From: Raja brachyura
Lineage: Eukaryota
NCBI GenBank assembly: GCA_963514005.1
Contig: OY740809.1
Location: 32,488,001 to 32,552,000, forward strand
Length of the DNA: 64,000 nt
Direction of reading: 5' to 3'
The notes beneath the pieces are model-generated. The model did not search any database. It was not told where the DNA came from and saw only the letters and a program-made list of their open reading frames with translations. Below, one piece after another: positions 23,179 through 58,627 of this stretch. The position numbers and the translations under genes were made by a program. Within the stretch, counting starts at the first letter, position 1, and every line of letters begins with the position of its first letter.

Positions 23179-24342
23179 CACTCCCAGACTGATGAAGACA
23201 AAATTATCAGAATTGCCATGTGCTGATTCGATGCTAATGGTGAATAAGTATACCCTATTGAATTACCTTGGGTACTGTGTTCGCTCTGTTTACCTCAGGA
23301 ACTGCCTTTGTTTTCCCGACAATATATACTGGCATACAATTCTTGCCCTAACCAGTATGAGACCTATTCATTTCCTGCTTTAGTAACGTGCCTATACTTC
23401 AGCGGTATTTCCTTAAATGCATTTTGTTCGGGAATGTCTGGCGATGGAAGAAAGATGGAACAAATGGAAGTTCCTATCAAGCCAGCTTCAATGTCCTCTT
23501 GCCACTGACTAACTGAACCAGTCAATAATTATTTCTTCTGCTTTGAAATTCACCACAAACGTTTGATCTGTATGTGGCACTTGGGGAGAGAGGATTTTAA
23601 TGGACATTTAGACGTAGACATAGAAAATAGGTGCAGGAGGAGGCCCTTCGAGCCAGCACCGCCATTCATTGTGATTGTGGCTGATCGTAATTAGGGCATT
23701 TGTGCAGAGTTTTGATTGTGACTGTTGACCATTCTATTTCCCCCATCCCAGATGTTGCTTGACCTGCTAAGTTCCTCCAGATTCATTGGTACTCCAGTTT
23801 CCAGCATTTGCAGTCTCTCGTGTGTGCCTCCATTGTTAAGGACACCAGAAATGAGCTGTTACAGCTCTGAAGGATTACCTGTTGCTTTATATGCTATCTA
23901 AGCTGCCAGCTCCAAAATTAGAATTACATTAACGTTGTATGTTGCTGGCTTTTGTGACAAAGCCTGATGCGGGGACGAAACATGCAGAGGCTAAATAATC
24001 TCATAGGGATTGTGCAAAATTGAAAAAATAAATTGATCAAAGCTTGAGTAGCAGATCAGCTACAAGGAGAGGAAAGTTGTATCTCCCCCGTCCAACTGTA
24101 AGTTTGAGGCCTTGTGTCATGTGGAATCTTCCCTGGCTGTTGATCAATACTGAAACAACCTTTTTCTCAGTTACTGTTACTTTTAGTGATACTGAAGTGT
24201 ATGCTGAAGGAATCTGATCTGTGTGCCAGACTGGCCAATTGTATTGTTATGCAGAATTGTTACTTTTAACGAAAGGTTCCATTTTTTTTTCTTTTTATGT
24301 TGGTACATTTATAGAGCTTCATGCATTAAGTCTATATTCTGA

Positions 24343-24465
<123 letters not shown>

Positions 24466-25741
24466 TAAAGGTGGAAAATAATGACAAATGTTGACGCATT
24501 AACTTTTGCTCTCCTCTGTGGAATGCATATTGGTCAGTTCTCAGTCTCGAAACAATATTATCCTACACAATTATCATTGAGAACAATTGTTATTACTCCT
24601 GAATTCCTTATATCAACTGAAATTGCAGTTGGATTGCTGTTAGTGACGTGGACTATCTTGTAATTTGTGACATGTAGGTTTGATTTTCTGCTGTGCCACT
24701 GACTGTTTTGTTATCTTTAGTATTTTTTGCTTGCGGAAACAAAAATAAACATTGTTATTGAAAGGACTTCTTTTGAAAGACCAGTGGGGGGGGAAGAATT
24801 GTTATTGCGATTCTGAAACTCCTAACCCCTTCCACTCATTTACGCAGTTATCATTATAATATGATTTATCATAACATGAGGTTTCTTAGTAACGCAGCAA
24901 TTGCTTTATTGCAGAACTACCTGTATTGGAGCATTCCTTTAATTCATTTCATTTGTATGCTGCCTGCTGTGATACAGAAGTGTATACAAGGGATCTAATC
25001 TGTGTGCCAGACTAGCCAATTGTATTGTAGAAACAAGGAACAACAGATGCTGGTTTACAAAAGGAAGCAGACGCAAATTGCTGGAGAACTTGGATAGATA
25101 ACGTTTGGGGTTAGCATCTGTTGTACGCACCACTTCTGACATCCAGGTTTAGATGAGCAGTAATTTGGTTCATTGGCATGTTGGACAGAACAAAATTGTT
25201 TTCTGTTATTGTTCCCATAAGTGTTTTATGGTCACTGATGCCATTTTTTCAACTACCTGGAACAGTTCCATGGCATTTGCAGTTATATGCACCATTCTAT
25301 TTGCTTTCAAGCTGAAATTCACGCACTATTTTCTACATAGCCGTCTACTTACTTCTCCACAAAATAACCTTTCATTGTTTTGATACATTTTGTTGTAATG
25401 GTCTCCTGACTGCCTTTTCAACTGGATCTGGTGCCATTTAAAGCCTTGGGACCTTTCTAATTGGACTAGGGTCCAGTTGGCTCAGTAGCTCTGTTCTTGT
25501 TCTTGTTTGCCCGACTTTTGATATGTACAATCCTCATATCTCCACACTTCTCTAATTCTGTCACAGCCCAGTGTCTGCTTTTGTCTTCTGACTTGTTTCC
25601 TGACTTTCCAAGTTATCCAGCGATCTTTCCTCTTGTTTGCCGGTCTTTAATAACTATCTCCCATTTCTGACTAAGTCTTCAATCCAAAACATTAAGCATT
25701 TCTCCCTTTCCATTGATGCTGATATTCCCAGTGACTTTATT

Positions 25742-38459: not shown

Positions 38460-40617
38460 GTCAGTTTGTCTTCCGCACAACTCGGTCTGTTAGAGAATTA
38501 AAGAAACTCGTCAAATCATTTCAATTCACTAATTGCAGTGGAAGAATTAAAAGGTTATCCTTTTAATACAAGCTGAAGCATCTGGCTTCCTTTTTACCCA
38601 ACACATCTTTTTGTATCCGTATGAAGTGGTGTCCTACTGGAATGCAGTTCCAAAGATCCAGGCACATGGAACGCTGTCAAAGAATTGAGTTTTTAATTAA
38701 AATATCATTGCTATTTATTTTTTTAAAAAAATCTGAAGTTACAGAACTTGGGATTATCTAATATTTTTTAAATATTTTTTTTAAATTGTGAAGGTGTTTT
38801 TTGTTTCGCTGGTAGGTAGAAACTGAGGTTTTCTGCTGTATTGGGTTTAGGCTGGTGTGTGGAGAAATATTTTAGTATTGAAATCGCAGCCAAGAAATAA
38901 AGTCATAAACTTATACAATATGGAAACAAGCCTGTCAGTCCAACACGTCCATATCGAACAAGTTACCGAACTGAGCTGGTCCCACTTAACCGAGCGGGTC
39001 CCACTTGATTGCACCTGATCCATACCCCTCCAAGCCTCTCCTGTCGAACTCGACCACTTCCTCTGGCAGCTCGCTCCGTGTTAGCCTTTGGAAAAAGCTG
39101 CTCCTCGAGTCCTCCTTAAATCTTTCTCCTCCAATCTTCAACCTCTTGCTTTTTAGTTTTAGACAACCCTACCCTGAGGAAAAGACTATAGTTATTCACC
39201 TTATCTAGGTCCCTCATGATTTTATAAATCTTAAGGCAGTATGTTTGGGATGCAGTGAGGAACTGGTGGAGAGGTTGTGTACCAGCCTGAAGATGTTGGG
39301 CCATCCATGGTACAATTGTATGTCGAATTCCTTGCACTGTGCCAACAGTCTGTTCGCACAAGCAGGCATGTGAGCTTGTTCTTCTGCTGTGGTTTGCCAA
39401 GCCTGATGGTCTTTTCCCAATGTTGGCATTCAGACACGTCAGGAGGATAGAAATAGTGAGTGCATACCAGCTGCTGTTAGCCACCACCTCATAATTAGTT
39501 ATCGGCTCTTGAGTGATGTCTGTGCTTTAGAGTCAGATGAACATAGTGCAGAGGCAGACCATTTGACCCACTAAGTCCGTCTTGGCCATCAACCACCCAT
39601 AAAAGATTAGCTACTCAATTCAAAACAAGAGTTTAATGTATTACCATCCAAACTAAGGCTTTGTATTCGGTTGGCTATTGGAGCATGGTAAAGAGTGATA
39701 TCCTACATTTTTTCTTTAGAAATTGTAACTTTTATTTTGTTCTAACCTGCTTTACAAAATGTTTAAGTCTGCAAACCAATGAACTTCATGAAGCCAGATT
39801 CATGCGTTAAAGGCAAGGCAGGTAGCTTCATGTCCCCACAGTTTAAAAACCTCCTGCAACACCTTAAATACAAACACTGAATTAACCAAATAGATGGATG
39901 TATTCTCAATTACTCAGAGACGTGCAGGTTTGTAGGTTAATTGGTTTCTGTAAACATTTCCCTTGTGTGCAGGTAATCGTTGGTTGGCATGGATTTGATG
40001 GGCCGAAGGGGCCTCTTTCCATGCTGTATCTGTAAACTTAAAAAATCAAATTTTCCATGCTGAATTTTCTGGAAAAGAAAGGAAGGATTAATGATTGCAG
40101 CGTTGGTAAAACTAAAATATTTGAGAATTATAGTATATTAATATTTTAAATGTGTTCTAATGATGCATGCATCTATATCCACCAAGGAGGTGGCTGTAGG
40201 GGATGGTGAGAGCAGGGAGCGGTGTGCTCTGGATAATCTCACTAAGGAGATGGCTTATTGGACGTATTGTAACATGCGGTGGATAAATCTTCGAAGCTAG
40301 ATTAGATCTATCCCAGGATTATTGTGGGAAGCCTATCTCTATTCGCTACAAGTGAGGTATCGGAAGGCTGGATAAGCTGGTTTAGACCTGTGAACTGAAT
40401 ATAATGATAGGGAAATTATTGGAGAAAATTAGTTTAGGAAAAACTGACTGATGGGGCATAGTTTGCTTTGTGTGGAGGAAATCCTGCCTCACTAATTTGA
40501 AACTAAGGAAAATAACTAAGAAAATTGACATGGGCATACTTTGCCCTCCATAATGTTAGGGACAAAGAGCCATCATTTATTTATTTGTCTCTGTACTCCA
40601 CGATTTGAGATTGTAAT

Positions 40618-41034
40618 TTAGAAGATTAGTGTAATTTTAGAATTTAGAAGATTGCGGGGGGATCTCATAGAGACGTACAAAATTCTTAAGGGGTTGGACA
40701 GGCTAGATGCAGGAAGATTGTTCCCAATGTTGGGGAAGTCCAGGACAAGGGTAAGGGGGAAGTCTTTTAGGACCGAGATGAGAAAATCATTTTTCACACA
40801 GAGTGTGGTGAATCTGTGGAATTCTCTGCCACAGAAGGTAGTTGAGGCCAGTTTGTTGGCTATATTTAAGAGGGAGTTGGATGTGGCCCTTGTGGCTAAT
40901 GGGATCAGGGGGTATGGAGAGAAGGCAGGTACAGGATACCGAGTTGGATGATCAGCCATGATCATATTGACTGGCTGCAGGCTCGAAGGACCGAATGGCC
41001 TATTCCTGCACCTATGTTCTATGTATTTTCTATC
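40618..41034 (+). mobile_element. CR1-type LINE 3' fragment inserted in the Tc1 left TIR
   Basis: RGDLIETYKILKG...FFTQ.VVNLWNSLP C-terminal ORF2 motif plus 3' UTR; flanked by TAAT on both sides. Confidence 0.9.
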
Positions 41035-41325
41035 TAATGGAAAAAAAAATCACATGTGGTCAAAGTGCACATTGTCAGATTTTATTAAAGGCCATTTTTA
41101 TACATTTTGGTTTCTCCATGTAGAATTTACAGCAGTGTTTATACATAGTCCGTCCCCCCCATTTCAGGGCACCATAATGTTTTGGACACATGGCTTCACA
41201 CGCATTTGTAGTTGCTCAGGTGTGTTTAATTGCCCCCTTAATGCAGATATAAGAGAGCTCTCAGAGCCTAGTCATTCCTCCTGTCTTTCCATCGCCCTTG
41301 GATACTTTTATTGCTGTTTATCAAT

Positions 41326-42320
41326 ATGAGGACCAAAGTTGTGCCAATGATACTCAAAGAAGCCATTATGAGACTGAGAAACAAGAATAAAACTGTTAGA
41401 GACATCAGCCAACCCTTAGGCTTACCAAAATCAACTGTTTGGAACATCATTAAGAAGAAAGAGAGCACTGGTGAGCTTACTAATCGCAATGGGACTGGCA
41501 GGCCAAGGAAGACCTCCACAGCTGATGACAGAAGAATGCTCTATAATAAAGAAAACCTGTCCGACAGATCAGAAACACTCTTCAGGAGTTGGGTGTGGAT
41601 TTGTCAATGACCACTGTCCGCAGAAGACCATGAAGAGAAATACAGAGGCTACACTGCAAGGTGCAAACCACTGGTTAGCTGCAAAAATAGGATGGCCAGG
41701 TTACAGTTTGCCAAGAAGTACTTAAAAGAGCAACCACAGTTCTGGAAGACGTTCTCATGGACAGATGAGATGAAGATTAACTTGTATCCGAGTGAAGGCA
41801 AGAGCAAAGTATGGAGGAGAGAAGGAACTGGCCAAGATCCAAAGCATAACACCTCATCTGTGAAACATGGTGGTGGGGGTGTATGGCCTGGGCATGTATG
41901 GCCGCTGAAGGTACTGGCTCACTTATCTTCATGGATGATAATGAATTCAGAAGTGTATAGACACATCCTATCTGCTCAAGTTCAAACAAATGCCTCAAAA
42001 CTCATTGGCCGGCAGCTTATTCTACAGCAAGACAATGATCCCAAACTGCTAACGCAACAAAGGAGTTTTTCAAAGCTAAAAAATGGTCGATTCTTGAGTG
42101 GCCAAGTCAATCACCTGATCTGAACCCAATTGAGCATGCCTTTTATATGCTGAAGAGAAAACTGAAGGGGACTAGCCCCCAAAGCAAGCACAAGCTAAAG
42201 ATGGCTGCAATACAGGCCTGGCAGAGCATCAACAGAGAAGACACCCAGCAACTGGTGATGTCCATGAATCGCAAACTTCAAGCAGTCATTGCATGCAAAG
42301 GATATGCAACAAAATACTAA
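41326..42320 (+). pseudogene. Frameshifted Tc1 transposase
   Basis: Motifs split over ORFs 41311..41610, 41692..42123 and a downstream frame; several frameshifts. Confidence 0.9.
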
Positions 42321-43954
42321 ACATGACTACTTTCATTTACATGACATTGCTGTGTCGTGAACATTATGGTGCCCTGAAATGGGGGGGAGTATATAAACCC
42401 TGCTGTAAGTTCTACATGGTGAAACCAAAATGTATAAAAATGGCCTTTATTAAAATCTGACAATGTGCACTTTAACCACATGTGATATTTTCTATTACAA
42501 ATCTCAAATTGTGGAGTACACAGGCACATAAATAAATGATGGGTCTTTGTCCCAAACATTATGGAGGGCACTGTAGTTGCCCACCTGTTAATTAGACTTG
42601 ACAAGATCCCACATGGATGGTTGGTCCAGAAAGCACATGTTGGCTAACCAGATCCAGAAATTAGCTTGGTGAAAGGAGGCAGAGGGTCGAGATGGACGTT
42701 TGCTTTTTATGATTGAAAAACTGCGACCAGTGGTGTACAAAAGGAATGAATGGGGTTAGAGAGGTTTTGAGTAGTAACTTTGTGGTTGCCACAAAAATTG
42801 TCGTCATGGATAGCGAGGAGTATTGTCTGATCCCACTGTGGGATATAGTTCGGATGGAAAGTTGCCTGGAGCATCGGCAGGTGGAATTTAACACTGAGAA
42901 CTGCATTTTGGACAGCCCCCTAATGAAGGGACACTGAGTAAATGTCGATGTACAGGAACGCTTTGGGTTTATGCATAGTTTTAATACAGTACATAATGGC
43001 AACATGTGTAGATACTGGCGAAGAAGATCTGCAACTCGCTTGAATATGTTAGTTGGAACAAAGAATATAAAAGTAGGGAATTAATTTTGTGACTTTGCCA
43101 AATGCTGGATAGGTGCGTGAGGAGTATTGTGTGCAGTTCTGGTCACCCCATGATCGGAAGGACTTTGCTTCAATTGGAGAACTTCAATTATGGGGAGAGA
43201 TTGGATAACGGGATTAGTGTAGATGAGCAAAACGGTTGGCATGGACTTGGTAGACCAAAGGGTCAGCTTCTGTATTAAATGGCTCTGGCTCAAAATCGTA
43301 GTTACTGTGAACCTTAAAACTGTGGATCTGAAAGTTATTAATGAGGCCAAGTGCATGTTAACCAAAGTTAAAGGGTTTCAAGTGAGTTTGAAGAATATAC
43401 TTTATATTGACTAAATTAATTTCCGGTAAACATTTGGAGGACCTATTGTTACTATGGTAGTTTAATAAATTTAAAAAACTCCTCAAACGGTAATATAAAG
43501 GGGGTTGATCAGTGAAAATCCTTGCTGCTTCTGTCCCTGGGGTTGGTGTGGATAGCATATGGCATTGAGAAACCGCCTGAGGATAATTTCAAGTTTACTC
43601 TCTCCATGGACTTGGGTGATCTTGTGTCATTGTGACTGGGGAACAAGGTTATTGCTCCGAAGGTAGACACAAATTGCTGGAGTAACTCGGCGGGATAGGC
43701 ACTATCTCTGGAGAGAAGGAATGGGTGATGTTTCGGGTCGAAACCCTTCTTCAGACTGATTTTTGTTCCCATGCATAACAAGACTTTCCAGATTCCCATT
43801 ACTCTTGTACCGCTGGTGAAAAGTTACTATTTCAACACTACATTTTGTGGCAAGCCTTTCAGAGGAGGGCATTTTCAAACTGACTACCCTGATTTTGGAA
43901 CCCAATTAGGTTTCCCCAGTTTCTTATCGAGGGTTAGTTTTTCATGTTTCTAGG

Positions 43955-44484: not shown

Positions 44485-45912
44485 TGAACCAGTCTCCGTA
44501 TGTATTGTGCACCTCTCCGATTTTTCTTCTCATAATTCTCATGACTGTGCTAAATGTGAAGCACTTGACCTGAAGAAACGATGGCAGACGGAATAAATTT
44601 CCAACTTTAAAGGAGTGCTTAACCTTGTTGGTAATTGTATGTAATTGGCAATTTAATGTACGGGCTTGAAAAGGGTTGACAGTAAATTGGAGGAAGTGTT
44701 TATTGGCTCAGATGACACAATGTTTCTTGGTAACCAAATATAATTGGGATCTAGGCTTCATTAATGTTACTTCATTGGTTTCTGGGTCCACTGGGTATCC
44801 ATAGAGATTTTGAGATATTTAATTTAAGCAATGGTGCTCAAGGCAGTGACGAATACAATGCATTTGGTTGGCTGGGTAAGTGAATTGTTGAAGAATTTAA
44901 AAATCTGCCTGTAACTTTTTGCTAGATACATGTTTCAACCGATACATTCACTATATTCCAACTATGATTACTGGTATGATAACTATGTTTAATTAGTCTG
45001 GCAAATGGTTTGAGAGGGAAACGGCTCCTGATACATAATTGTTGCCTCACTGTCAAGGCTGGCTTCTGAAACATAACTGTTGCCTCGCTCACTTACGGTT
45101 TGCAGCTTTTCCTTTTGAAGAATTTTCAGAATTAAATCATGTTGCCACCGTCAATTAGTTGTGTTGCAGTCCTTGAAATAGTAATTTAATCTCCCTGCGG
45201 TAGTACTGGGCAGTGGGAGGGAACTGGTGGTGCTGTGGTGCTTTATTCAATCGTTTTATACAACTTAATGGATTTCACACAAAAAAATCAGGGTCAGTGG
45301 GAGAAACCTTGAGTGTCTTGTCCAGTATTTTATGTGCACATGAAGCAATAGAATGCATTTTGTGAATTTTGAGAGTATGCTTCAAAAAAGACAAGTGTGA
45401 CACCACTTAACCTCTGCACCAAGATTATAAAGTCCTTTATGTTGTCAGTGAAGCATTGCACTCTACTATAAAGCATTCTGCGTTGAGGACATTTTGTGCA
45501 GTTATGTGATCTGGTTGGGTTGGGGTTGTTAAAGCTCACTGCAAAGAGTGGCTCTTCAGACTGACTTGCAGCACTTGATGCGTTTATCAACTGAAACAGC
45601 AGAAATTTAATTATCCTGTTACATTTTTTGTCATTATTGGTTGTAATACACTTTGTATCTAATAAGAATCGTGGAATAATAGCTGATTGCACATGCCATC
45701 ACAGTTGCTGTTTCACAAATCAAAAACAATGTAATTGCCATTGGAAGTAATACATTTAAGTAATAGTCAAACATGAATAACTAGTGTTGGGTGGGGATGT
45801 ATCATGCTGGCAATTTTAACCAGTTTTCTTTTTGCTACATTTTATGTATTTGCTAAAATTTGACCCTGAGTTTTTATGCAACAGTTTTTTATGTAACATT
45901 TTTTTTATGCTT

Positions 45913-47168
45913 CACCCATTCCTTCTCTCCAGAGATGCTGCCTGTCCCGCTGAGTTACCCCAGAATTTTGTGTATCTTCGAAAACAACCAGAGCATTTGG
46001 TTTTCCCCAAAAAAAGTGTAAGGGTGTTAGTCTGGCAATGATGACAAACTTGCCCTCACTGAGAACAGTGTTCAATAATGAAAACTCTGTACTCGAACCT
46101 GAGCCAGACTAAATATCTTGCTGATAAAATCTCAAATTCATTATTATTACCCTTGTTAACACTTCATTAGAAATTTCTCTTTGTTGGAGATGAGGTAGAA
46201 GTGGATGGTAGTTAACGGAGGGAGGGGAAGATAGAATCGATCGGCATTTCAAAAATTTGGGAAAGAAAAATGCTTTATATAGACACTGGAAACTTGCAAG
46301 TTTATCTAATTTAAATTTATGAAACTTGAGGGATTCAGGGATTTCCTTATTCAATTTCAGTCCTCTTTAAAAAGCCTGTAAATGCCTCGAATTCTGTAAT
46401 TTAACTGCAAAATACTCGGTGGTTAACACAGACACAAGAGACAACATGTACTAGAATCCTGGGCAAACAATGCTGGAGGAATCCAGCAGAGCCGGCAGCA
46501 TCTGGGGAGGAAATAGATGGGCGGCATTTTGGGCAGAGACCCTTCCAACTGATTTCAGACCAGTCTGAAGAAGGATCTCGATCTGTTGCCTGTCCATTCC
46601 CTCCCCTACATTCAATGGTTATTGTAGGTTAACAGCATGTAGCAGGGCTAGTCACGTTTGGTTTTGCACCCTGGGATGAAAAAGACGCAACATGATTGTC
46701 AAAGCAAGGTTGCTTTCTTCAATAAGTAATTAACAAGAAGGCTTTTTTCACATTACACATTTGAGATCAGATCACCTTAAAGAGAATTTAATTCATACTT
46801 GTGAATTGTGTCCATGATAACTTTGCCGGTGTAAATTATGATGCAGTATTGACTTTTAGAAACATGTCCTAACGTACAAAGTTCACTTGATGTAATCCTA
46901 TTTCTGGCTTCAGCAAGAGGCTCCAACTCAAACTAAACGCACTTGTGGTTTAGTAAAACTTTGGCACAGATGCTATGTTTTGAGGGGGGGAAAGAAAGGA
47001 TATACAGACATGAAAGCTAACTCTGAGCGTACAAGTTTTCTAGCAAGCCGATTGTATAAATACATTGGCTGAAATGTTTAAAGCGGGTTTGTGATATTTG
47101 TCACTCAATTTAATGCAAATGCCAATGACGTGGTCATTGAATGCCTGTTTATTGTATATGGTCCTACA
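45913..47168 (+). repeat. Intragenic duplication of intron 9 (about 48771-50001) inserted in intron 8
   Basis: Collinear near-identical sequence by eye, flanked by a 78-bp direct repeat (45835-45912 / 47164-47241). Confidence 0.92.
46031..46108 (+). ncRNA. SNORD103: C/D box snoRNA, SNORD103/SNORD85 family, copy in intron 8
   Basis: C box ATGATGA 46038-44; guide ACTTGCCCTC (complement of 18S rRNA GAGGGCAAGT); D' CTGA 46059-62; D CTGA 46099-102; 10-bp terminal stem TTAGTCTGGC/GCCAGACTAA. PUM1 is the known vertebrate host of this family. Confidence 0.9.
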
Positions 47169-47445
47169 TTTTATGTATTTGCTAAAATTTAACCTTTAGT
47201 TTTTATGCAACATTTTTTTATGTAACTTTTTTTTTATGCTTGTGAATATAAACCTTCAACAGAAGACCGTCATTTACTGAAGAAGTCTTTGTTGTATCGT
47301 TACTTAACACTGGTGGTGTCTAATTCTTTGCATTCTAAAGGCCATTGATTTGTGTATTAAAAGTCCATGTAATTTACTGAATAATCACAAATCAGAAATG
47401 AAGGTATTAATGAATAGCCGCAATTGATGTTTTAAACTAGATTGA

Positions 47446-47664
<219 letters not shown>

Positions 47665-48888
47665 TGAGTATTTGTTCCCCTACCATAGAAGGCATGGGCA
47701 AGGAATTAGTGCATGAGGAAGAAAGAAATACCATCTTAAAATCATTCTTCTGGGTGGAGAAAACAAGAGGGAGCTGTGTGAATGGCCTTATCTCGTTTGG
47801 GAATGCTATCTTGTTTACAGTTTTTCTTGACATTTGATTCGTATCCATTTAAAAGTCCAACCCACGCATTGTAGGGTGGGGGGGTAATTTTGTAATCACT
47901 CTGCAAACTGAATAGTTGGCGATTGAGCAGTGAATTCATAGCAAATGATGGGAGGGAGGAGAGAACATTCAAACGCATGTGGTTTTGACAACAAAGCAAG
48001 TCGTCTGAGACCTGCCATAAGAGCATTCTTGCCTGGAATAACAATTCTGACCCATATCGTGGATTTATTTTCCATGTTTAGGTTTATGTTTTCATTCGGG
48101 TTGCTCTTATGATTCCTCAATAGTTAAGGATCAAGATGATTGAAGGAGAATTAGTTCAACTTGCCTTTTCTCAGCAAGCAATTGCTTTCATCTGGTTTAT
48201 GACAGGTTATGAAAGGAAGGGTATATAATCCCAGTTCCCTAAAAGCGCATTTAGAGAATCCAGCATTAGATTAGTTGCATGATCTAGGAATTGTAACCCA
48301 GTAATTCTTAAACAAAGAGAGAAATGCTCAGCGATTTGTCAGCAGTGTTCTTGAGGTTTTTTTTTCATATCTATTCCTTATGTTAATATGTCGGCTGTAT
48401 TTAAAAATTGGCTTTCAGGCTCTTTTTGAATAGGGGCACCATAGAAATGTTGCATCCCAAAAATTCCCTTTGGCAGGAAGGATGCTTCCCAAAGGCGACT
48501 TAACACGAGGCCTTCAGGGATGATGTACAACCACTGTGTATTAACACAATGACAGGATGTGCCCCTATTCTGTCTTGATTTGTAGATGTTTGTTGTATTT
48601 GTGACAAACGTGGATGAACTGCTGATGTCCTTTTCAACAGGTTTTGTGGGATGAATTTCTAAGGCCTCATCCAGCCAAAACACCCAAGTTTCAAATGTAG
48701 CAAAACCAGATTCACAGGCACACAATTTGTTCCAAGTAAAACAACCAGAGAGGGTCTCGACCCGAAACGTCACCCATTCCTTCTCTCCAGAGATGCTGCC
48801 TGTCCCGCTGAGTTACCCCAGAATTTTGTGTATCTTCGAAAACAACCAGAGCATTTGGTTTTCCCCCCAAAAAGTGTAAGGGTGTTAG

Positions 48889-48966
48889 TCTGGCAATGAT
48901 GACAAACTTGCCCTCACTGAGAACAGTGTTCAATAATGAAAACTCTGTACTCGAACCTGAGCCAGA
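48889..48966 (+). ncRNA. SNORD103: C/D box snoRNA, SNORD103/SNORD85 family, copy in intron 9
   Basis: Same sequence as the intron-8 copy; C box 48896-902, D box 48957-60, 10-bp terminal stem. Confidence 0.9.
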
Positions 48967-49993
48967 CTAAATATCTTGCTGATAAAATCTCAAATTCATT
49001 ATTATTACCCTTGTTAACACTTCATTAGAAATTTCTCTTTGTTGGAGATGAGGTAGAAGTGGATGGTAGTTAACGGAGGGAGGGGGAGATAGAATCAATC
49101 GGCATTTCAAAAATTTGGGAAAGAAAAATGCTTTATATAGACACTGGAAACTTGTAAGTTTATCTAATTTAAATTTATGAAACTTGAGGGATTCAGGGAT
49201 TTCCTTATTCAATTTCACGTCTTTAAAAAGCCTGTAAATGCCTCGAATTCTGCAATTTAACTGCAAAATACTCAGTGGTTAACAAAGACACAAGAGACAA
49301 CATGTACTAGAATCCTTGGCAAACAATGCTGGAGGAATCCAGCAGAGCCGGCAGCATCTGGGGAGGAAATAGATGGGTGGCATTTTGGGCAGAGACCCTT
49401 CCAGCTGATTTCAGACCAGTCTGAAGAAGGATCTCGATCTGTTGCCTGACCATTCCCTCCCATACATTCAATGGTTACTGTAGGTTAACAACATGTAGCA
49501 GGGCTAGTAATGTTTGGTTTCGCACCCTGGGAAAGCAAGGTTGCTTTCTTCAATAAGTAATTAACAAGAAGGCTTTTTCTCATCACACAACGGAGATCAG
49601 ATTACCTTAACAATAATTTAATTCATACTTGTGAATTGTGTCTATGATAAGTTTGCCGGTGTAAATTATGATGCAGTATTGACTTTTAGAAACATGTCCT
49701 AATGTACAAAGTTCACCTGATGTAATCCTGTTTCTGGCTTCAGCAAGAGGCTCCAACTCAAACTAAACGTACTTGTGGTTTGAGTAAAACTTTGGCACAG
49801 ATGCTATGTTTTGAGGGGGGGGGGAGAAAGAATATACAGACATGAAAGCTAACTCTTTGAGTGTACAAGTTTTCTATCCAGCCTATTGTATAAATACATT
49901 GGCTGAAATGTTTTAAAGCAGGTTTGTGATATTTTTCACTCCATTTAATGTAAATGGTCAACGTGGTCATTGAATGCCTGTTTATTGTATTAG

Positions 49994-50139
49994 GCCCTAC
50001 AGTGGTTCCACCTCAGTACTACGGTGTTCCGTGGGGTGTTTACCCAGCGAATCTCTTCCAGCAACAAGCTGCAGCAGCTGCTGCGAACAACTCAGCAAAC
50101 CAACAGGCTGCATCACAGGCACAGCAGGGGCAGCAACAG
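49994..50139 (+). CDS. PUM1: PUM1 exon 10 ([25 protein letters not shown]...QQGQQQ)
   Basis: gtattAG|GC...CAG|GCAAGT (GC donor); 146 nt, phase 1-0. Confidence 0.93.
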
Positions 50140-52413
50140 GCAAGTCACTCATTTACTTCCTAGCTTGTTGTAAGAAAACATGAACAGCAAACTGGGGAAA
50201 TGGAGCAGATTTTGGAGCAGCTTTTGTCCAGCGTTAGAATCTCTCACAATACTGTCCCCTTCAAGTTGTGTTATTTTGCTTTCCAATGACGTTGATCAGA
50301 TGCAAGGTAAAAACAGTTAAGCAGTTACTGGCGAGCCATTGCTGAGACCTTTAAAACTAATGTACAACTTCTGTCTGATCAGCAAAGTATCTTAACACTG
50401 GAGCTGCAGTGCTAGTTTATAAACATCAGTTTGACAATGGTGCATGAGAAGCAAGTATTAATTTATAAGAATTTTGATTCTTTATTCAAAGACCTCACCC
50501 TGACTTTAATATATCAGTGCTGCACAGGAATCTACTGGGTGGTGACCCTGGGATTATTTTGGATGTCTATTTGTTTCCCCATGGCGTTCTTCCTTCATCC
50601 AGAATAGCTGCGGCTTCTGAACAAACGCACCAGTTTGGTCATTATCCTTAACTAAACGGCTGTGTTTCACCTTGTAAGCTCTAGTCAACGAAAGACAAAC
50701 TTGTCCTAGTTCCAGTACATCAGTTCGTGCCAGGCATGTGAGAATGCAAGAAATAGCAGTACGAGTAAGACATTTAATTTGTTGCACCTCCTTCACCTTT
50801 CACTAAGTTCATGGCTGACATTTTGCTTCATGGCCACTCCTGTGTTAATGCCTAAAATAGCCTAAATCCCTTGATACCTAATAAAACCAGTTTTCTTGGA
50901 ACATACTCAAATCTGAACCTCCACATACCTCTTGGGTAGTCATTCATCAACCCCTGTGTAAAGGCATTTCTTCTCACCTGAATGGCCAACTTCTTACTTT
51001 GAGACTCTGAATCCCAGGTTCTAGATATGCCAGGCAAGGTAAACTTTATTTCCACATCTATCCTCACAACCCTTTTCTAAGTAATACAAGTTTAAATGAG
51101 GGTGCCTTCCATTCTTGTAAACTTGAAGTTTTGCTTGATCTGCATATCCTTTCCCAAATGTGATTTAAACTTTCATGTGCAACCTTCAAGTTTTGGATCT
51201 AGAAATGAAGGACCTACAAGTCAGGGTGGACTATGAATTGGAGGGGGATGTAAAGGTTTAGTTGTTGCCTTATGCTCTTCCTCCCCGGTCGCAGATTTAG
51301 AGATGCTGTTGAAATAGGCTGGATGAATAATTGCATTGCACTTTGTAGATGGTACATAATGTGTGCAGGTGGTTGAGAGAATTAATGTTCAGTCTGAGAT
51401 GCAAATCATGCAGCTAATTTTCCTAAGTTGTTGGATTCAGGCAAGTTGGCAATATTCCATCACAATCCTGACATGTGCTTGTAGATGATATAAAGACCCT
51501 TGTGTGTCAGGCAGGTCGCCCATCGCAGGATATTCAGAAGCACCCCTGCTTCCATAGCCACAATATTTAAGTTTCTAACCAGTGGTGACCCCAAAATGTT
51601 ATTGGTGGAGAACTTGGCAATGTCAATGAATGTCCAGGGTTATGGTGAGCAATCCACAGTGTACAGATACATGATAAAGGCAATAACGTTTATTGCGAGG
51701 TGTAACGGCAAATTTCCAATTCTACCAGTGTCCACGTTCCTTTGCCATTACTACACAGGTACGTAGGAGTGATCTTACGCAGTCCAAAAAGAACAGATCT
51801 TCCAGTCGTCATTTCAAGTTTAAGTGGTTCTTTATTGAAGTAGTTGTACAAACAAAGAGATTAACGTGCCAGGTTCTCCTTTTTTTCCATCTGGTGAGAA
51901 CTGTATACTCTCCACCCCTGTGGCGGGTCTGATCACTCCCTGTCCACTAAGCCCATATGAATACGACCCTCTGCGCATCTAATGACCGCCCTCAAGTGTC
52001 CAAAACAATACTGCAAAATATATCTAGACAAAATAATATAATATGCCAACAGTAGCTTGCCTAAACATAAATGGCTCCTACACTAGGTGAAGTCCGATTT
52101 AAAGATAGTCCATATGTCTCCAGTGCAGTAGATGGGTCTCCAATGAGGAAGATAGTAGCTCAGGGCCGCTCTCTAGTCCTGAGAATGGTTCAGTTACCCG
52201 ATGCATACCGCCCATGCTTGAATATTTTTGCTGTCTGCAGACACTGTTTTGTTTAGTGAATTGTGAACGGATTGAATACTTCTGCAATCCTCGGAGATCA
52301 TCGCAAATTTCATTTTATGATGTTCTGCATCCTATTTTCAGATTTTTATTTAATATAAATTAAAATAACAATTGCCATTTGATGATCCAATGATTCCCAT
52401 CTGTTTTATCCAG

Positions 52414-53113: not shown

Positions 53114-53193
53114 TCTGGCAATGATGACACACTTGCCCTCACTGAGAATATTATTCGGTGATGAGAGCTTTTCTTGTACTCTACCTGAGCCAG
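53114..53193 (+). ncRNA. SNORD103: C/D box snoRNA, SNORD103/SNORD85 family, divergent copy in intron 11
   Basis: C ATGATGA 53121-27, same ACTTGCCCTC guide, D' 53142-45, canonical C' GTGATGA 53158-64, D 53185-88, stem CTGGC/GCCAG; flanks are unrelated to the other copies. Confidence 0.9.
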
Positions 53194-53404
53194 CCATTGT
53201 TTACATTGTTACGGACCTAAGCTGTAATTTGCTTAAAACACAGCCAGTTTTTTAATGTTATAATAGTTGTCCGTGTTTTAGTCTGTATTCGTGCACTAAT
53301 AATGTGTTTAAGGAAGAGGTGATTTCCAGATGAGTTGAAAACACAAATTCATTTTGCAATTACTAAACGTAGCCAAATATAACAAAGTACTTTGTAGACT
53401 TAAT

Positions 53405-55125: not shown

Positions 55126-55414
55126 TGAAAACGTGGATATAAACCGTTTACAAACCTACAATTGTTTATAAACCTACAATTTTCACTGCCTCTTAAAGTT
55201 GAACTGTTAGATCATTTCAGATGATACAATGTTTTTGCTGTCTGAACCATGAATTTGAAGATCCTGCAATATACATAAAATAATTACCTTGTTGGGTATT
55301 TCTACGGAGGGTACTTGCAGTGCCCTCCGTGTTTAAAAAAAAAAGACTAATTCAATGACGTTTTTGGATTGTTCGATTTACTGCCTCTTTTATTGTGTGT
55401 GGCTTTTGGGTCTG

Positions 55415-56420
55415 AAAAATTCCCTTCGGCAGGAAGGATGCTTCCCAAAGGCGATTTAACCCAAGGCCTTCAGGGATGATGTACAACCACTGTGTATTAA
55501 CACAATGACAGGATGTGCCCCTATTCTGTCTTTATTTGTAGATGTTTGTTGTATTTGTGACAAACGTGGATGAACTGCTGGTGTCCTTTTCAACAGGTTT
55601 TGTGGGATGAATTTCTAAGGCCTCATCCAGCTAAAACACCCAAGTTTCAAATGTAGCAAAACCAGATTCACAGGCACAAAATTTGTTCCAAGTAAAATAA
55701 CCAGAGAAGGGTCTCGACCCGAAACGTCACCCATTCCTTCTCTCCAGAGATGCTGCCTGTCCCGCTGAGTTACGCCAGAATTTGTGTATCTTCGAAAACA
55801 ACCAGAGCATTTGGTTTCCCCCCCCAAAAAAGTGTAAGGGTGTTAGTCTGGCGATGATGACAAACTTGCCCTCACTGAGAACAGTGTTCAATAATGAAAA
55901 CTCTGTACTCGAACCTGAGCCAGACTAAATATCTTGCTGATAAAGTCTCGAATCCATTATTATTACCCTTGTTAACACTTCACTAGGAATGTTCTCTTTG
56001 TTGGGGATGAGTTGGAAGTGGATGGTAGTTAACGGCGGGAAGGAGAGATAGAATTGATCGGCATTTCAAAAATTTGGGAAAGCAAAATGTTTTATATAGA
56101 CACTGGAAACTTGTTAGTTTATTTAATTTAAATTTATGAAACTTGAGGGATTCAGGGATTTCCTTATTCAATATCAGTCCTCTTTAAAAAGCCTGTAAAT
56201 ACCTCGAATTCTGTCATTTAACTGCAAAATACTCAGTGGTTAACAAAGACACAAGAGATAACATGTACTAGAATCCTTGGCAAACAATGCTGGAGGAATC
56301 CAGCGAAGCCGGCAGCATCTGGGGAGGAAATAGACGAGTGTTTTTTTGGGCAGAGACCCTTCCCGCTGATTTCAGACCAGTCTGAAGAAGGATCTCGATC
56401 TGTTGCCTGTCCGTTCCCTC
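55415..56420 (+). repeat. Intragenic duplication sharing sequence with intron 9 (about 48459-49459), located in intron 12
   Basis: Collinear near-identical sequence from AAAAATTCCCTT to TTCCCTC; bracketed by a 20-bp direct repeat (55309-55328 / 56442-56461). Confidence 0.92.
55847..55924 (+). ncRNA. SNORD103: C/D box snoRNA, SNORD103/SNORD85 family, copy in intron 12
   Basis: One substitution versus the intron 8/9 copies; C box 55854-60, D box 55915-18, 10-bp terminal stem. Confidence 0.88.
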
Positions 56421-56450
56421 GGAAATAGACGGTGGCATTTTGGGTACTTG

Positions 56451-57890
56451 CAGTGCCCTCCATAATGTTTGGGACAAAGACCCACCATTTATTTATTTGC
56501 CTCTGTACTCCACAATTTTAGATTGTAATAGGAAAAAAAAATCACATCTGGTTAAAGTGCACATTGTCAGATTTTAATAAAGGCCATTTTTATACATTTT
56601 GGTTTCACCATGTAGAAATTACAGCTGCGTTTATACATAATCCCGCCCCCCCATATTAACGTTTGGGACACAGCAATGTAATGTAAATTAAAGTAGTCAT
56701 GTTTAGTATTTTGTTGCCTATCCTTTGCATGCAATGACTACTTGAAGTCTGCGATTCATGGACATCACCAGTTGCTGGGTGTTTTCTCTGGTGATGCTCT
56801 GCCAGGCCTGTATTTCAGCCATCTTCAGCTTATGCTTGTTTTGGGGGCTAGTCCCCTTCAATTTTCTCTTCGGCATATAAAAGGCATGCTCAATTGGGTT
56901 CAGATCGGATGATTGACTTGGCCACTCAAGAATTGATCATTTTTTTTAGCTTTGAAAAACTCCTTTGTTGCTTTAGCAGTATGTTTGGGATCATTGTCTT
57001 GCTGTAGAATGAACCGCCGGCCAATGAGTTTTGAGGCATTTGTTTGAACTTGAGCAAATGGGATGGGTCTATACACTTCAGAATTCATTATGCTACGACC
57101 ATCAGCAGTTGTATCATCAATGAAAAAAATGTGCCAGTACCTTCAGCAGCCATACATGCCCAGGCCATAACACCCCCACCAACATGTTTGACAGATGAGG
57201 TGGTATGCTTTAGATCTTGGGCAGTTCCTTCTCTCCTCCATACTTTCCTCTTTCCATCATTCTGACATAAGTTAATCTTCGTCTCATCGATCCACGAGAA
57301 CTTTTCCCAGAACTGTGGTTGATCTTTTAAGTACTTCTTGGCAAATTGTAACCCGGCCATCCTATTTTTGCAGCTAACCAGTGGTTTGCATCTTGCAGTG
57401 TAGCCTCGGTATTTTTGTTCATGAAGTCTTATGATGACAGTGGTCATTGACAAATCCACACCTGACTCCTGAAGAGTGTTTCTGATCTGTCGGACAGGTG
57501 TTTGGAGATTTTTCTTTATTATAGAGAGAATTCTTCTGTCATCAGCTGTGGAGGTCTTCCTTGACCTGCCAGTCCCTTTGAGATTAGTAAGCTCACCAGT
57601 GCTCTTTCTTCTTAATGATGTTCCAAACAGTTGATTTTGGTAAGCCTGTCTCTTCTCAGTTTTATTCTTGTTTCTCAGTCTCATAATAACTTCTATGACT
57701 TTCATTGGCACAACTTTGGTCCTCATGTTGATAAACAGCAATACAAGTTTCCAAAGGTGATGGAAAGACTGGAGGAAAGACTAGGTGCTGAGAGCTCTCT
57801 TATACCTGCATTAAGGAGGCAATTAAACACACCTGAGCAATTACAAACACCTGTGAAGCCATGTGTCCCAAACATTATGGTGCCCTGCAA
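56451..57890 (-). mobile_element. Second copy of the same Tc1 family, inverted; one TIR truncated at a poly-G tract
   Basis: Starts CAGTGCCCTCCATAATGTTTGGGACAAAG; transposase remnants in ORFs 57088..57741 and 56900..57088 on the minus strand; outer part of the second TIR is missing after 57890. Confidence 0.92.
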
Positions 57891-58627
57891 TTTGGGGGGT
57901 GGGGGGGGGGGGGGGGGGGGGCCGACGATGTATAATGAGTCGTTGGCCCAAACCTTATGTAGCTTGGTGCAGACTTTTTGCTCTGGTTTAATTCAGTGCA
58001 ATCATTTCACACAACTTCTGAAGCACTATTTAAACTCCTTTCCATTCCTCCCCTTCCACCCAAGTGCCCGTGCATATTCTAACACTTGAGATCTACACTT
58101 CATTTTGAATTAGCTTGGGATAATTTTCCAAATTGGAGTTTCTGGTATTTTTTTCACTATCTCAGTGCCTATGACAATAATATGCCAATCCATGGTTGAC
58201 TGCCATCTGAAACATTAGGAAGGAAACTGGTCACTGCACCATCTGGCCAATGTGCCATTTAAACCATGTTGTGTTCTAAGCTCGAAATGGCCTCCGTGTT
58301 GGCAGGCCTCTGTAGTGACAGGGGATCTAGTATGTGAAGGCTGTCCAGAATGTCATGCAACTAAAAAACGTATTCAATATTGTGGGAATTTAATCAAAGC
58401 TAGTTTGCAATACAAATTATGTTTTTTATAAATGCGACATAACGTAATTACTGCATTTGAGAGGTAATTTAAATTATAATATAATTGTTCATGTCCTTGT
58501 GTCTAAAATGTTCAGTTAGAAGTTGGTTTAGTTTAGAGTGCTCTGTAACGTAATTGCCAATATGCAACGCTAACATGCTGATAAAGATTAGCTTTATTTT
58601 ACAGAGCACATTTTTTTACAATTTGTA

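What the first reader, a model, noticed from the sequence alone, without database searches (positions are those of the whole stretch)
45835..47241. Templated insertion with a 78-bp flanking duplication and CTACA microhomology (template-switch signature)
Seen: 45835-45912 recurs at 47164-47241 (5 mismatches in 78), bracketing a copy of about 48771-50001. The copy runs past the intron 9/exon 10 boundary and rejoins at CTACA, which is both bases 4-8 of exon 10 and the first 5 bases of the 78-bp repeat. The 5' junction shares a single T. There is no poly-A tail. Inference: a DNA-level FoSTeS/MMBIR-type switch forward about 2.9 kb and back again, which also fixes the direction (intron 9 was the donor).
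Basis: partly seen in the sequence, partly recalled or inferred. Interest (0 to 1): 0.7.

Follow-up and report, generated by a model that had tools for sequence, protein, structure and literature searches.

The report
snoRNA gene copied into neighbouring intron
A 1.25-kb piece of one intron of the PUM1 gene, carrying an intact small nucleolar RNA gene (SNORD103), was copied into the intron before it, and a second copy sits three introns downstream; the junctions suggest the copying was likely a DNA-synthesis template jump, which would be a rare base-level record of how such RNA genes spread between the introns of their host gene.

Summary
45835-45912 recurs at 47164-47241 (73/78) around a copy of 48770-50001, with CTACA and T shared at the junctions. 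A second copy from the same donor (55415-56420, 20-bp flanking duplication) put another SNORD103 into intron 12. All four SNORD103 hits in the genome lie in four separate PUM1 introns. Intron 9 is the donor: copy A starts inside a complete short repeat and ends in exon 10. Four related organisms share the 3' junction and none shows an empty site, so the event is old and not an assembly error. The copies have since been partly homogenised, likely by gene conversion. The best mechanism is a one-step DNA template-switch 'cycle' (0.55); tandem duplication then exon deletion (0.22) and RNA-templated insertion (0.18) are not excluded. FoSTeS, MMBIR and SDSA cannot be told apart. The forward jump was about 1.5 kb, not 2.9 kb. 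The scan has noted local templated copies elsewhere in this genome, but not a snoRNA case. Expression is untested.

The parts
45835..45912 (+).
45912..47168 (+). Copy A: inserted copy of 48770-50001; begins in mid-repeat, ends 8 nt into a copy of exon 10
   Evidence: 3' junction present in 4 of 4 related organisms
46031..46108 (+). SNORD103/SNORD85 snoRNA gene in copy A; 78/78 identical to the donor's; boxes C, D', D, 10-nt guide and 10-bp terminal stem intact
   Evidence: (74.2 bits, cut-off 45)
47158..47160 (+). Copied 3' splice site of exon 10 with the AG lost (TAG reads ATG)
   Evidence: state in relatives not displayed
47164..47168 (+). CTACA microhomology, shared by exon 10 bases 4-8 and the start of X
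47164..47241 (+). X2, right copy of the 78-bp flanking duplication
47492..47611 (+). PUM1 exon 9 (120 nt, in-frame), between copy A and donor B
   Evidence: gene named (a later exon is 43/43 identical to human PUM1)
48459..50001 (+). Donor B in intron 9: 48770-50001 gave copy A, 48459-49459 gave copy C
48751..48838 (+). Short high-copy repeat with a 13-bp target duplication (48738-48750, 48839-48851); whole in B and C, 5'-cut in A
48889..48966 (+). SNORD103 gene in donor B
49994..50139 (+). PUM1 exon 10 (followed by a GC donor)
53114..53194 (+). Older SNORD103 paralogue in intron 11, about 80% identical, no shared flanks
   Evidence: 76.4 bits
55309..55328 (+). Left copy of the 20-bp flanking duplication of copy C (20/20 with 56442-56461)
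55329..55414 (+). 86-nt filler at the 5' junction of C; no source found
55415..56420 (+). Copy C of 48459-49459, in intron 12
   Evidence: 45 substitutions in 1000
55847..55924 (+). SNORD103 gene in copy C (77/78 to the donor; the change lies outside the boxes and guide)
   Evidence: (71.7 bits)
56421..56444 (+). Second templated piece of C, a re-copy of donor 49365-49389, ending in a GGG shared with the flanking duplication
56442..56461 (+). Right copy of the 20-bp duplication; spans the left end of a Tc1-like transposon (about 56451-57935)

Best explanation
This is an old, fixed copy-and-paste insertion that placed the SNORD103-bearing 3' half of PUM1 intron 9 into intron 8, likely in one DNA-synthesis step in which a stalled or broken strand switched to a template about 1.5 kb downstream, copied 1.23 kb and rejoined its own site 78 bp early by pairing at CTACA. 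Shown: the X-Y'-X anatomy, the direction, an intact snoRNA in the cargo, a second such event (C) from the same donor into intron 12, presence in four related organisms, and alleles shared by both copies within a species but differing between species. Inferred: a single-step DNA route (FoSTeS, MMBIR or SDSA with microhomology-mediated return; the sequence cannot separate these); gene conversion as the cause of the homogenisation; that the extra snoRNA copies are expressed and were kept because each sits alone in an intron with no extra exon (about 0.6); and that loss of the copied AG removed a cryptic splice site.
For: Both donors are local (3 and 7 kb), unspliced and tailless. The 78-bp duplication lies outside the range seen around repeats nearby: 43 of 260 sampled isolated repeats had a flanking duplication, 42 of them 9-22 bp, one 24 bp, none above 40; control 2 of 260. 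C has a multi-piece junction. In 1.864 Mb around the window, 21 of 93 non-overlapping low-copy pairs lie within 10 kb against 1.0 expected, 14 direct and 7 inverted (three are the PUM1 pairs and some may be transposon arms). A third X-Y'-X there has a 608-bp X, an inverted donor 24 kb away, one junction inside repeat homology and a 3-bp microhomology at the other; tandem duplication plus deletion cannot make that. Under the two-step model the deletions would have had to fall within 78 of 328 bp and 20 of 229 bp of the breakpoints, jointly about 0.02 if uniform. snoRNA; the 10-nt guide is antisense to this genome's own 18S rRNA. Conversion: A/B differ at 12 of 679 columns before 46593 and 41 of 548 after (0 of 500 permutations as extreme). 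At 48988, 49032, 49663 and 49700, window A and B share one state while contigs of some relatives show the other at full or near-full depth. In run X14, one contig at about double depth covers 48807-49178 while A's matching stretch is almost uncovered.
Against: No empty site or intermediate was found, so the number of steps is not observed. In both A and C the longer microhomology lies at the 3' (sense) end, overlapping the start of the duplication, and both copies are in transcript orientation, as reverse transcription would give (n=2). C's 20-bp duplication is within the retro-like range. Long, tailless target duplications occur with L1 (PMC5223499, passages; an unchecked scan note reports a 1370-bp case in this genome). 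Such cycles are rare here: the strict scan found 2 hits in 76 copies (A and a microsatellite artefact) and missed C and the third case. Purifying selection on the snoRNA copies is not shown: B vs A 0/78 inside against 51/1149 outside, p=0.07; B vs C 1/78 against 44/922, p=0.25, and conversion confounds both.
Confidence: 0.55

Rival explanations
1. Two steps: a 2.84-kb tandem duplication of 47164-50001 joined at CTACA, then deletion of 1.53 kb (the extra exon 9) from the first copy. C would arise likewise by duplicating exons 10-12 and deleting them from the second copy.
For: It gives exactly the same final sequence. The duplicated exon sets are in frame (120 nt; 146+139+144=429 nt), so the intermediates could be tolerated and would already hold one snoRNA per intron. 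A tandem snoRNA-plus-exon duplication is described for cow U17C (PMC1687206, section 8). Both PUM1 copies are in direct orientation.
Against: No sampled relative shows the intermediate: contigs in 3 of 4 runs run from X1 25-27 nt into the insert (below the tool's 31-letter bridging rule). It needs two short leftovers by chance (about 0.02 jointly). It does not explain the inverted third case and needs extra events for C's two fillers.
Confidence: 0.22
2. RNA-templated insertion: unspliced PUM1 pre-mRNA or intron RNA containing the snoRNA was reverse-transcribed at a nick in its own gene by a LINE or Penelope enzyme, primed internally at CTACA (A) or GGG (C); X is then a target-site duplication.
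For: The polarity and orientation of both events fit target-primed synthesis. A ends within 8 nt of the 3' splice site and so holds the whole intron downstream of the snoRNA, as Type-3 snoRNA retroposons do (PMC1687206, section 8). C has a 20-bp duplication, a foreign 5' piece and a re-start at its 3' end. Two of the three cycles found carry a snoRNA. Repeats with 9-24 bp duplications are common here.
Against: No A-rich tail. The 5' ends lie 118 and 430 nt upstream of the snoRNA, not at its mature end. 78 bp is outside the local duplication range (0 of 260 above 40 bp). Both landings are within 7 kb of the donor, and the genome search found no distant SNORD103 retrocopies (4 hits, all in PUM1, a lower bound). 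A ribozyme-cut 5' end for A was tested and not supported.
Confidence: 0.18
3. Assembly artefact or chance arrangement of repeats.
For: The block contains high-copy short repeats.
Against: Whole contigs bridge the 3' junction in runs X3, X11 and X14, and 4 of 4 further runs leave the donor at 50001 and continue into X. A/B and X1/X2 differ by 2-7%.
Confidence: 0.01

Closest known systems
'Cycles' of templated insertions and local 2-jumps in cancer genomes (Li et al. 2020, PMC7025897; passages and section 9 read)
   Same: A copied segment is inserted and the path returns to the host, re-replicating a host segment (X-Y'-X); a template-switch origin is proposed.
   Different: Here it is germline, fixed across five organisms, 1-1.3 kb with a 20-78 bp host duplication, the donor is in the same gene, and both junctions of A are direct. 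The cancer cycles typically draw on other chromosomes, and the local 2-jumps listed there involve inversions.
snoRNA cis-duplication / intragenic duplication (Shao et al. 2009, PMC2653536; Hoeppner et al. 2009, PMC2817437; passages read)
   Same: Paralogous snoRNAs in separate introns of one host gene. The chicken table lists three HBII-251/U103 guides in PUM1 (introns 9, 12, 21 by its own numbering, not mapped to this gene here).
   Different: Those papers describe the pattern as tandem duplication and call the mechanism of intron embedding 'still enigmatic'. Here the breakpoints survive and show a non-tandem, exon-free product.
snoRNA retroposons, snoRT Types 1-3, and the cow U17C duplication (Weber 2006, PMC1687206; passages and section 8 read)
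   Same: New snoRNA copies; A holds the whole downstream intron, like Type 3.
   Different: No A-rich tail, a 78-bp rather than 7-19-bp duplication, no ttAAAA site, 5' end not at the snoRNA, local landing. U17C was a tandem duplication that kept the extra exon.
Templated sequence insertion polymorphisms, classes 1 and 2 (Onozawa and Aplan 2016, PMC5110952; parts 1-2 of 4 read)
   Same: An insertion templated from an intact donor.
   Different: Class 1 has a duplication plus poly(A) and an L1 site; class 2 has no duplication; both have distant donors. A has a duplication with microhomology, no tail and a local donor, so it fits neither.
Duplication-dependent strand annealing (Fiston-Lavier et al. 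2007; seen only as one passage of the review PMC3420103)
   Same: Non-tandem duplication by break repair; the third cycle has one junction inside repeat homology.
   Different: A's junctions use 1- and 5-bp microhomology, not shared repeats; the original paper was not read.

Membership tests
Cycle of templated insertion | Inserted segment is an extra copy of an intact donor | tested here: met
Cycle of templated insertion | Path returns to the host and re-replicates a host segment | tested here: met
   78-bp X (A) and 20-bp X (C)
Cycle of templated insertion | Both junctions formed in one event | tested here: inconclusive
   No empty site or intermediate in 4 related organisms; the two-step route is not excluded
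FoSTeS/MMBIR | Microhomology at the switch points | tested here: met
   5 and 1 bp in A; 3 bp at C's 3' end, none at two other C joints
FoSTeS/MMBIR | Made by a replicative polymerase at a stalled or collapsed fork | not testable with these tools
   Sequence alone cannot separate this from SDSA or end-joining routes
snoRNA retroposon (snoRT) | A-rich tail | tested here: not met
snoRNA retroposon (snoRT) | 7-19-bp target duplication at a ttAAAA site | tested here: not met
   78 bp after TTTTTG (A); 20 bp after ACGGA (C)
snoRNA retroposon (snoRT) | Starts at the mature snoRNA 5' end | tested here: not met
   118 nt (A) and 430 nt (C) upstream
SNORD103/SNORD85 (RF00188) | Covariance-model score above the gathering cut-off | tested here: met
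   71.7-76.4 bits against 45, full length
SNORD103/SNORD85 (RF00188) | Boxes C and D, terminal stem, guide antisense to 18S rRNA | tested here: met
   (10-bp stem in A, B, C; weaker in the older copy)
SNORD103/SNORD85 (RF00188) | Sense strand of a PUM1 intron, one per intron | tested here: met
   introns 8, 9, 11, 12
SNORD103/SNORD85 (RF00188) | Expressed and guides 18S methylation | not tested
   No RNA run was laid
Hammerhead-cleaved RNA template for A's 5' end | Intact catalytic core in the donor repeat and a pile-up of truncations at the cut site | tested here: not met
   The donor copy lacks the CUGA box; truncation counts near the site (3, 3, 4, 6, 7 of 260) are at background; no Rfam hammerhead hit

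The most novel reading that the evidence does not exclude
Exon-sparing template-switch cycles are the main route by which vertebrate snoRNA genes colonise other introns of their own host gene. This locus preserves two such jumps at base resolution, both yielding working SNORD103 genes kept in step by gene conversion. A bolder form, also not excluded, is that the snoRNA-bearing intron RNA itself templated the insertion back into its own gene.
Probability: 0.3. Interest if true: 0.7.

Novelty: new variant of a known kind. Interest (0 to 1): 0.45.

Why it matters
Multiple snoRNA paralogues in separate introns of one host gene are common, but old copies have lost their flanks, so the mechanism is usually assumed (tandem duplication or retroposition). 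Here two young-enough copies keep both junctions and show a product with no extra exon, no tail and a short host duplication. That makes the question testable: scan young intragenic snoRNA paralogues in slowly evolving genomes for the same junctions. It is also an inherited, long-fixed example of a rearrangement class defined in tumours. As a rearrangement alone it is ordinary.

Tried and rejected
Empty-site search: 8 of 21 listed runs (four related organisms, two runs each) were laid; all carry the insertion, and no more distant holder was listed. An apparent loss of the distal donor in organisms D and E (zero depth) was rejected: both copies appear when only B is offered. Hammerhead cleavage as the cause of A's 5' end: not supported. 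A hairpin guiding C's back-jump: both jump points sit at the base of a predicted stem, but as DNA it folds no better than shuffles (z -1.0 and -1.8). Source of C's 86-nt filler: none in the window, the 1.864 Mb or the genome search. Selection against the copied AG: suggestive only. One of three junction mismatches (49995) is T in both copies of D and E, and runs X5 and X8 list no T>A change and X18 no A>T, so the window's exact change is not shared; the relatives' state at the AG was not displayed. Two other X-interior-X candidates had no donor for their unique interior. A polarity test against gene strand was not possible with only three cycles and no annotation for the third. Not-in-print check: searches of the held library, and scan look-ups, showed no breakpoint-level mechanism for snoRNA cis-duplication; most subscription papers (including Zemann 2006 and Schmitz 2008) were not seen and no supplement was read.

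Full report
Observation. X1 45835-45912 and X2 47164-47241 match at 73 of 78. They enclose copy A, 45912-47168, which matches B, 48770-50001 (53 substitutions in 1227 columns). The 3' junction shares CTACA with bases 4-8 of the exon at 49994, the 5' junction shares one T, and there is no tail. Five shared bases have a chance of about 0.001-0.006. The host gene is PUM1: a later exon is 43/43 identical to human PUM1. The organism is probably a skate; that rests on earlier scan notes and my recall of its repeats, and was not tested. One correction: on the pre-insertion allele the forward jump is about 1.5 kb and the return about 2.8 kb.

What was copied. Rfam finds SNORD103/SNORD85 (RF00188, cut-off 45) at 46031-46108 in A (74.2 bits), 48889-48966 in B (74.2), 55847-55924 (71.7) and 53114-53194 (76.4). 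A genome search returned these four and no others (57 candidates scored, so a lower bound). Each lies on the sense strand, alone in its intron (8, 9, 12, 11). Boxes C, D' and D are intact, and the 10-nt guide is antisense to this genome's 18S rRNA. A, B and C keep a 10-bp terminal stem; from recall, such stems let C/D snoRNAs be processed far from the 3' splice site, and these lie 1.0-3.3 kb from it. Chicken PUM1 also hosts three guides of this family (PMC2653536, table passage). Expression was not tested.

A second event. Copy C (55415-56420) matches 48459-49459 (45 substitutions in 1000). It has its own perfect 20-bp flanking duplication (55309-55328 / 56442-56461), an 86-nt 5' filler with no source found, and a 24-nt re-copy of donor 49365-49389 ending in a shared GGG. 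It landed 11 nt inside the end of a Tc1-like element. Whether A and C arose together or separately is not resolved.

Direction. A ends inside exon 10, and it begins in the middle of a short repeat that is whole in B with its 13-bp target duplication. C has the flanking duplication and fillers while B has continuous unique flanks. B is therefore the donor of both.

Age and reality. Of 21 listed runs, 8 from four other organisms were laid. Whole contigs bridge A's 3' junction in X3, X11 and X14. In X5, X8, X13 and X18 a contig leaves B at 50001 and continues into X (4 of 4). Contigs in X3, X11 and X14 run from X1 25-27 nt into the insert and stop in the repeat, below the 31-letter bridging rule. 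Contig breaks at 48459/48488 and C-type alleles suggest that C is shared too. The most distant holders differ from the window by about 4% in unique stretches (46 other letters over 47041-48168; 63 over 47019-48774). No empty site was seen.

Later history. A and B differ at 12 of 679 columns before 46593 and 41 of 548 after (0 of 500 permutations as extreme). At 48988, 49032, 49663 and 49700 the window's A and B agree with each other while contigs of some relatives carry the other state at full or near-full depth, and run X14 collapses 48807-49178 into one double-depth contig. With one shared origin this needs gene conversion or parallel mutation; conversion is inferred. Tables were cut to 40 rows, so these are examples and not a count. 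Conversion also means that A/B divergence cannot date the event. The copied acceptor AG is lost in the window's A; its state in relatives was not displayed.

Context in the genome. I joined 1.864 Mb around the window (200 N). Of 3903 masked self-hits, 383 passed the length and identity filters and 96 were low-copy. Of the 93 non-overlapping pairs, 21 lie within 10 kb against 1.0 expected, 14 direct and 7 inverted. A strict flank scan of 76 copies found A and one microsatellite artefact (controls 5 of 300 at score 12 or more) and missed C. A direct-repeat scan (91 low-copy of 186) and inspection of 12 stretches gave one more clean case at C31:31991388-31993314: a 608-bp X around an inverted copy of C31:31967292-31968141, one junction inside repeat homology and 3 bp shared at the other. 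Three cycles is a lower bound. Flanking duplications around 260 of 346 isolated repeats were 9-24 bp in 43 cases (a few are simple repeats) and never above 40.

Mechanism. One-step DNA template switching (0.55) is favoured by local unspliced donors, the 78-bp duplication, C's multi-piece junction, the inverted third case and the short leftovers. Tandem duplication plus deletion (0.22) gives the same sequence, and its intermediates would be in frame. RNA-templated insertion (0.18) fits the polarity of both events, C's 20-bp duplication and A's end beside the splice site, and tailless long-duplication L1 inserts are documented (PMC5223499, passages); it fails the snoRT features. FoSTeS, MMBIR and SDSA-type repair cannot be separated by sequence.

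Comparison with the literature. The structure works like, and by anatomy meets, the 'cycle' of templated insertion (PMC7025897; passages and section 9), with single-event origin unproven. It is a case of snoRNA cis-duplication (PMC2653536, PMC2817437; passages), whose mechanism the chicken paper calls enigmatic. It is not a snoRT (PMC1687206; passages and section 8) and fits neither TSIP class (PMC5110952; parts 1-2 of 4). PMC3349704 (passages) confirms that SNORD85 is an isoform of SNORD103. Searches showed no breakpoint-level account of snoRNA cis-duplication, but the library lacks most subscription papers and no supplements were read.

Verdict. The feature is real and old. It is an ordinary class of rearrangement with an unusual, well-preserved consequence: a snoRNA gene copied twice into empty introns of its own host. 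Interest 0.45.

Noticed in passing
L076:3388-5314 (G000 C31:31991388-31993314); donor C31:31967292-31968141: A third X-Y'-X: 608-bp duplication around an inverted 0.7-kb copy from 24 kb upstream; one junction inside shared repeat sequence, 3-bp microhomology at the other; X/X and Y/donor both about 3.5% diverged.
   Followed up: yes
window 40542-42573 and 56451-57935: Two decayed Tc1-like transposons (87% identical, opposite orientation) with long inverted repeats; the first has a SINE inside its left end. A third copy lies about 5 kb upstream of the window.
   Followed up: partly
window 48751-48838 and many other places: An abundant short repeat carries a hammerhead-like core (204 matches in 1.864 Mb against 3 in a shuffle) and has target duplications mostly of 9-22 bp; no Rfam hit.
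   Followed up: partly
window 24186-24247 and 24969-25028: A 62-bp local duplicate (89%) brackets PUM1 exon 3; the interior is native, so this is a small local copy or a remnant.
   Followed up: partly
window 50140-50141: Intron 10 begins with a GC donor.
   Followed up: no
L026:6784-6920: A SNORA50-family H/ACA snoRNA (93.9 bits) about 7 kb beyond the window's end, probably in a later PUM1 intron.
   Followed up: no
G000 C31:31817721-31818352 and 31895262-31895893: A 630-bp low-copy block duplicated 77 kb apart with about 155 bp inverted and moved, like a 5'-inversion; no flanking duplication seen.
   Followed up: partly
G000 C31:32619227-32624534: A very recent tandem duplication (99.9% over 2.8 kb).
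   Followed up: no
window 49590-49995: In organisms D and E both copies mostly carry the window's A-type alleles, so either A converted B there or B changed fast in the other lineage.
   Followed up: partly
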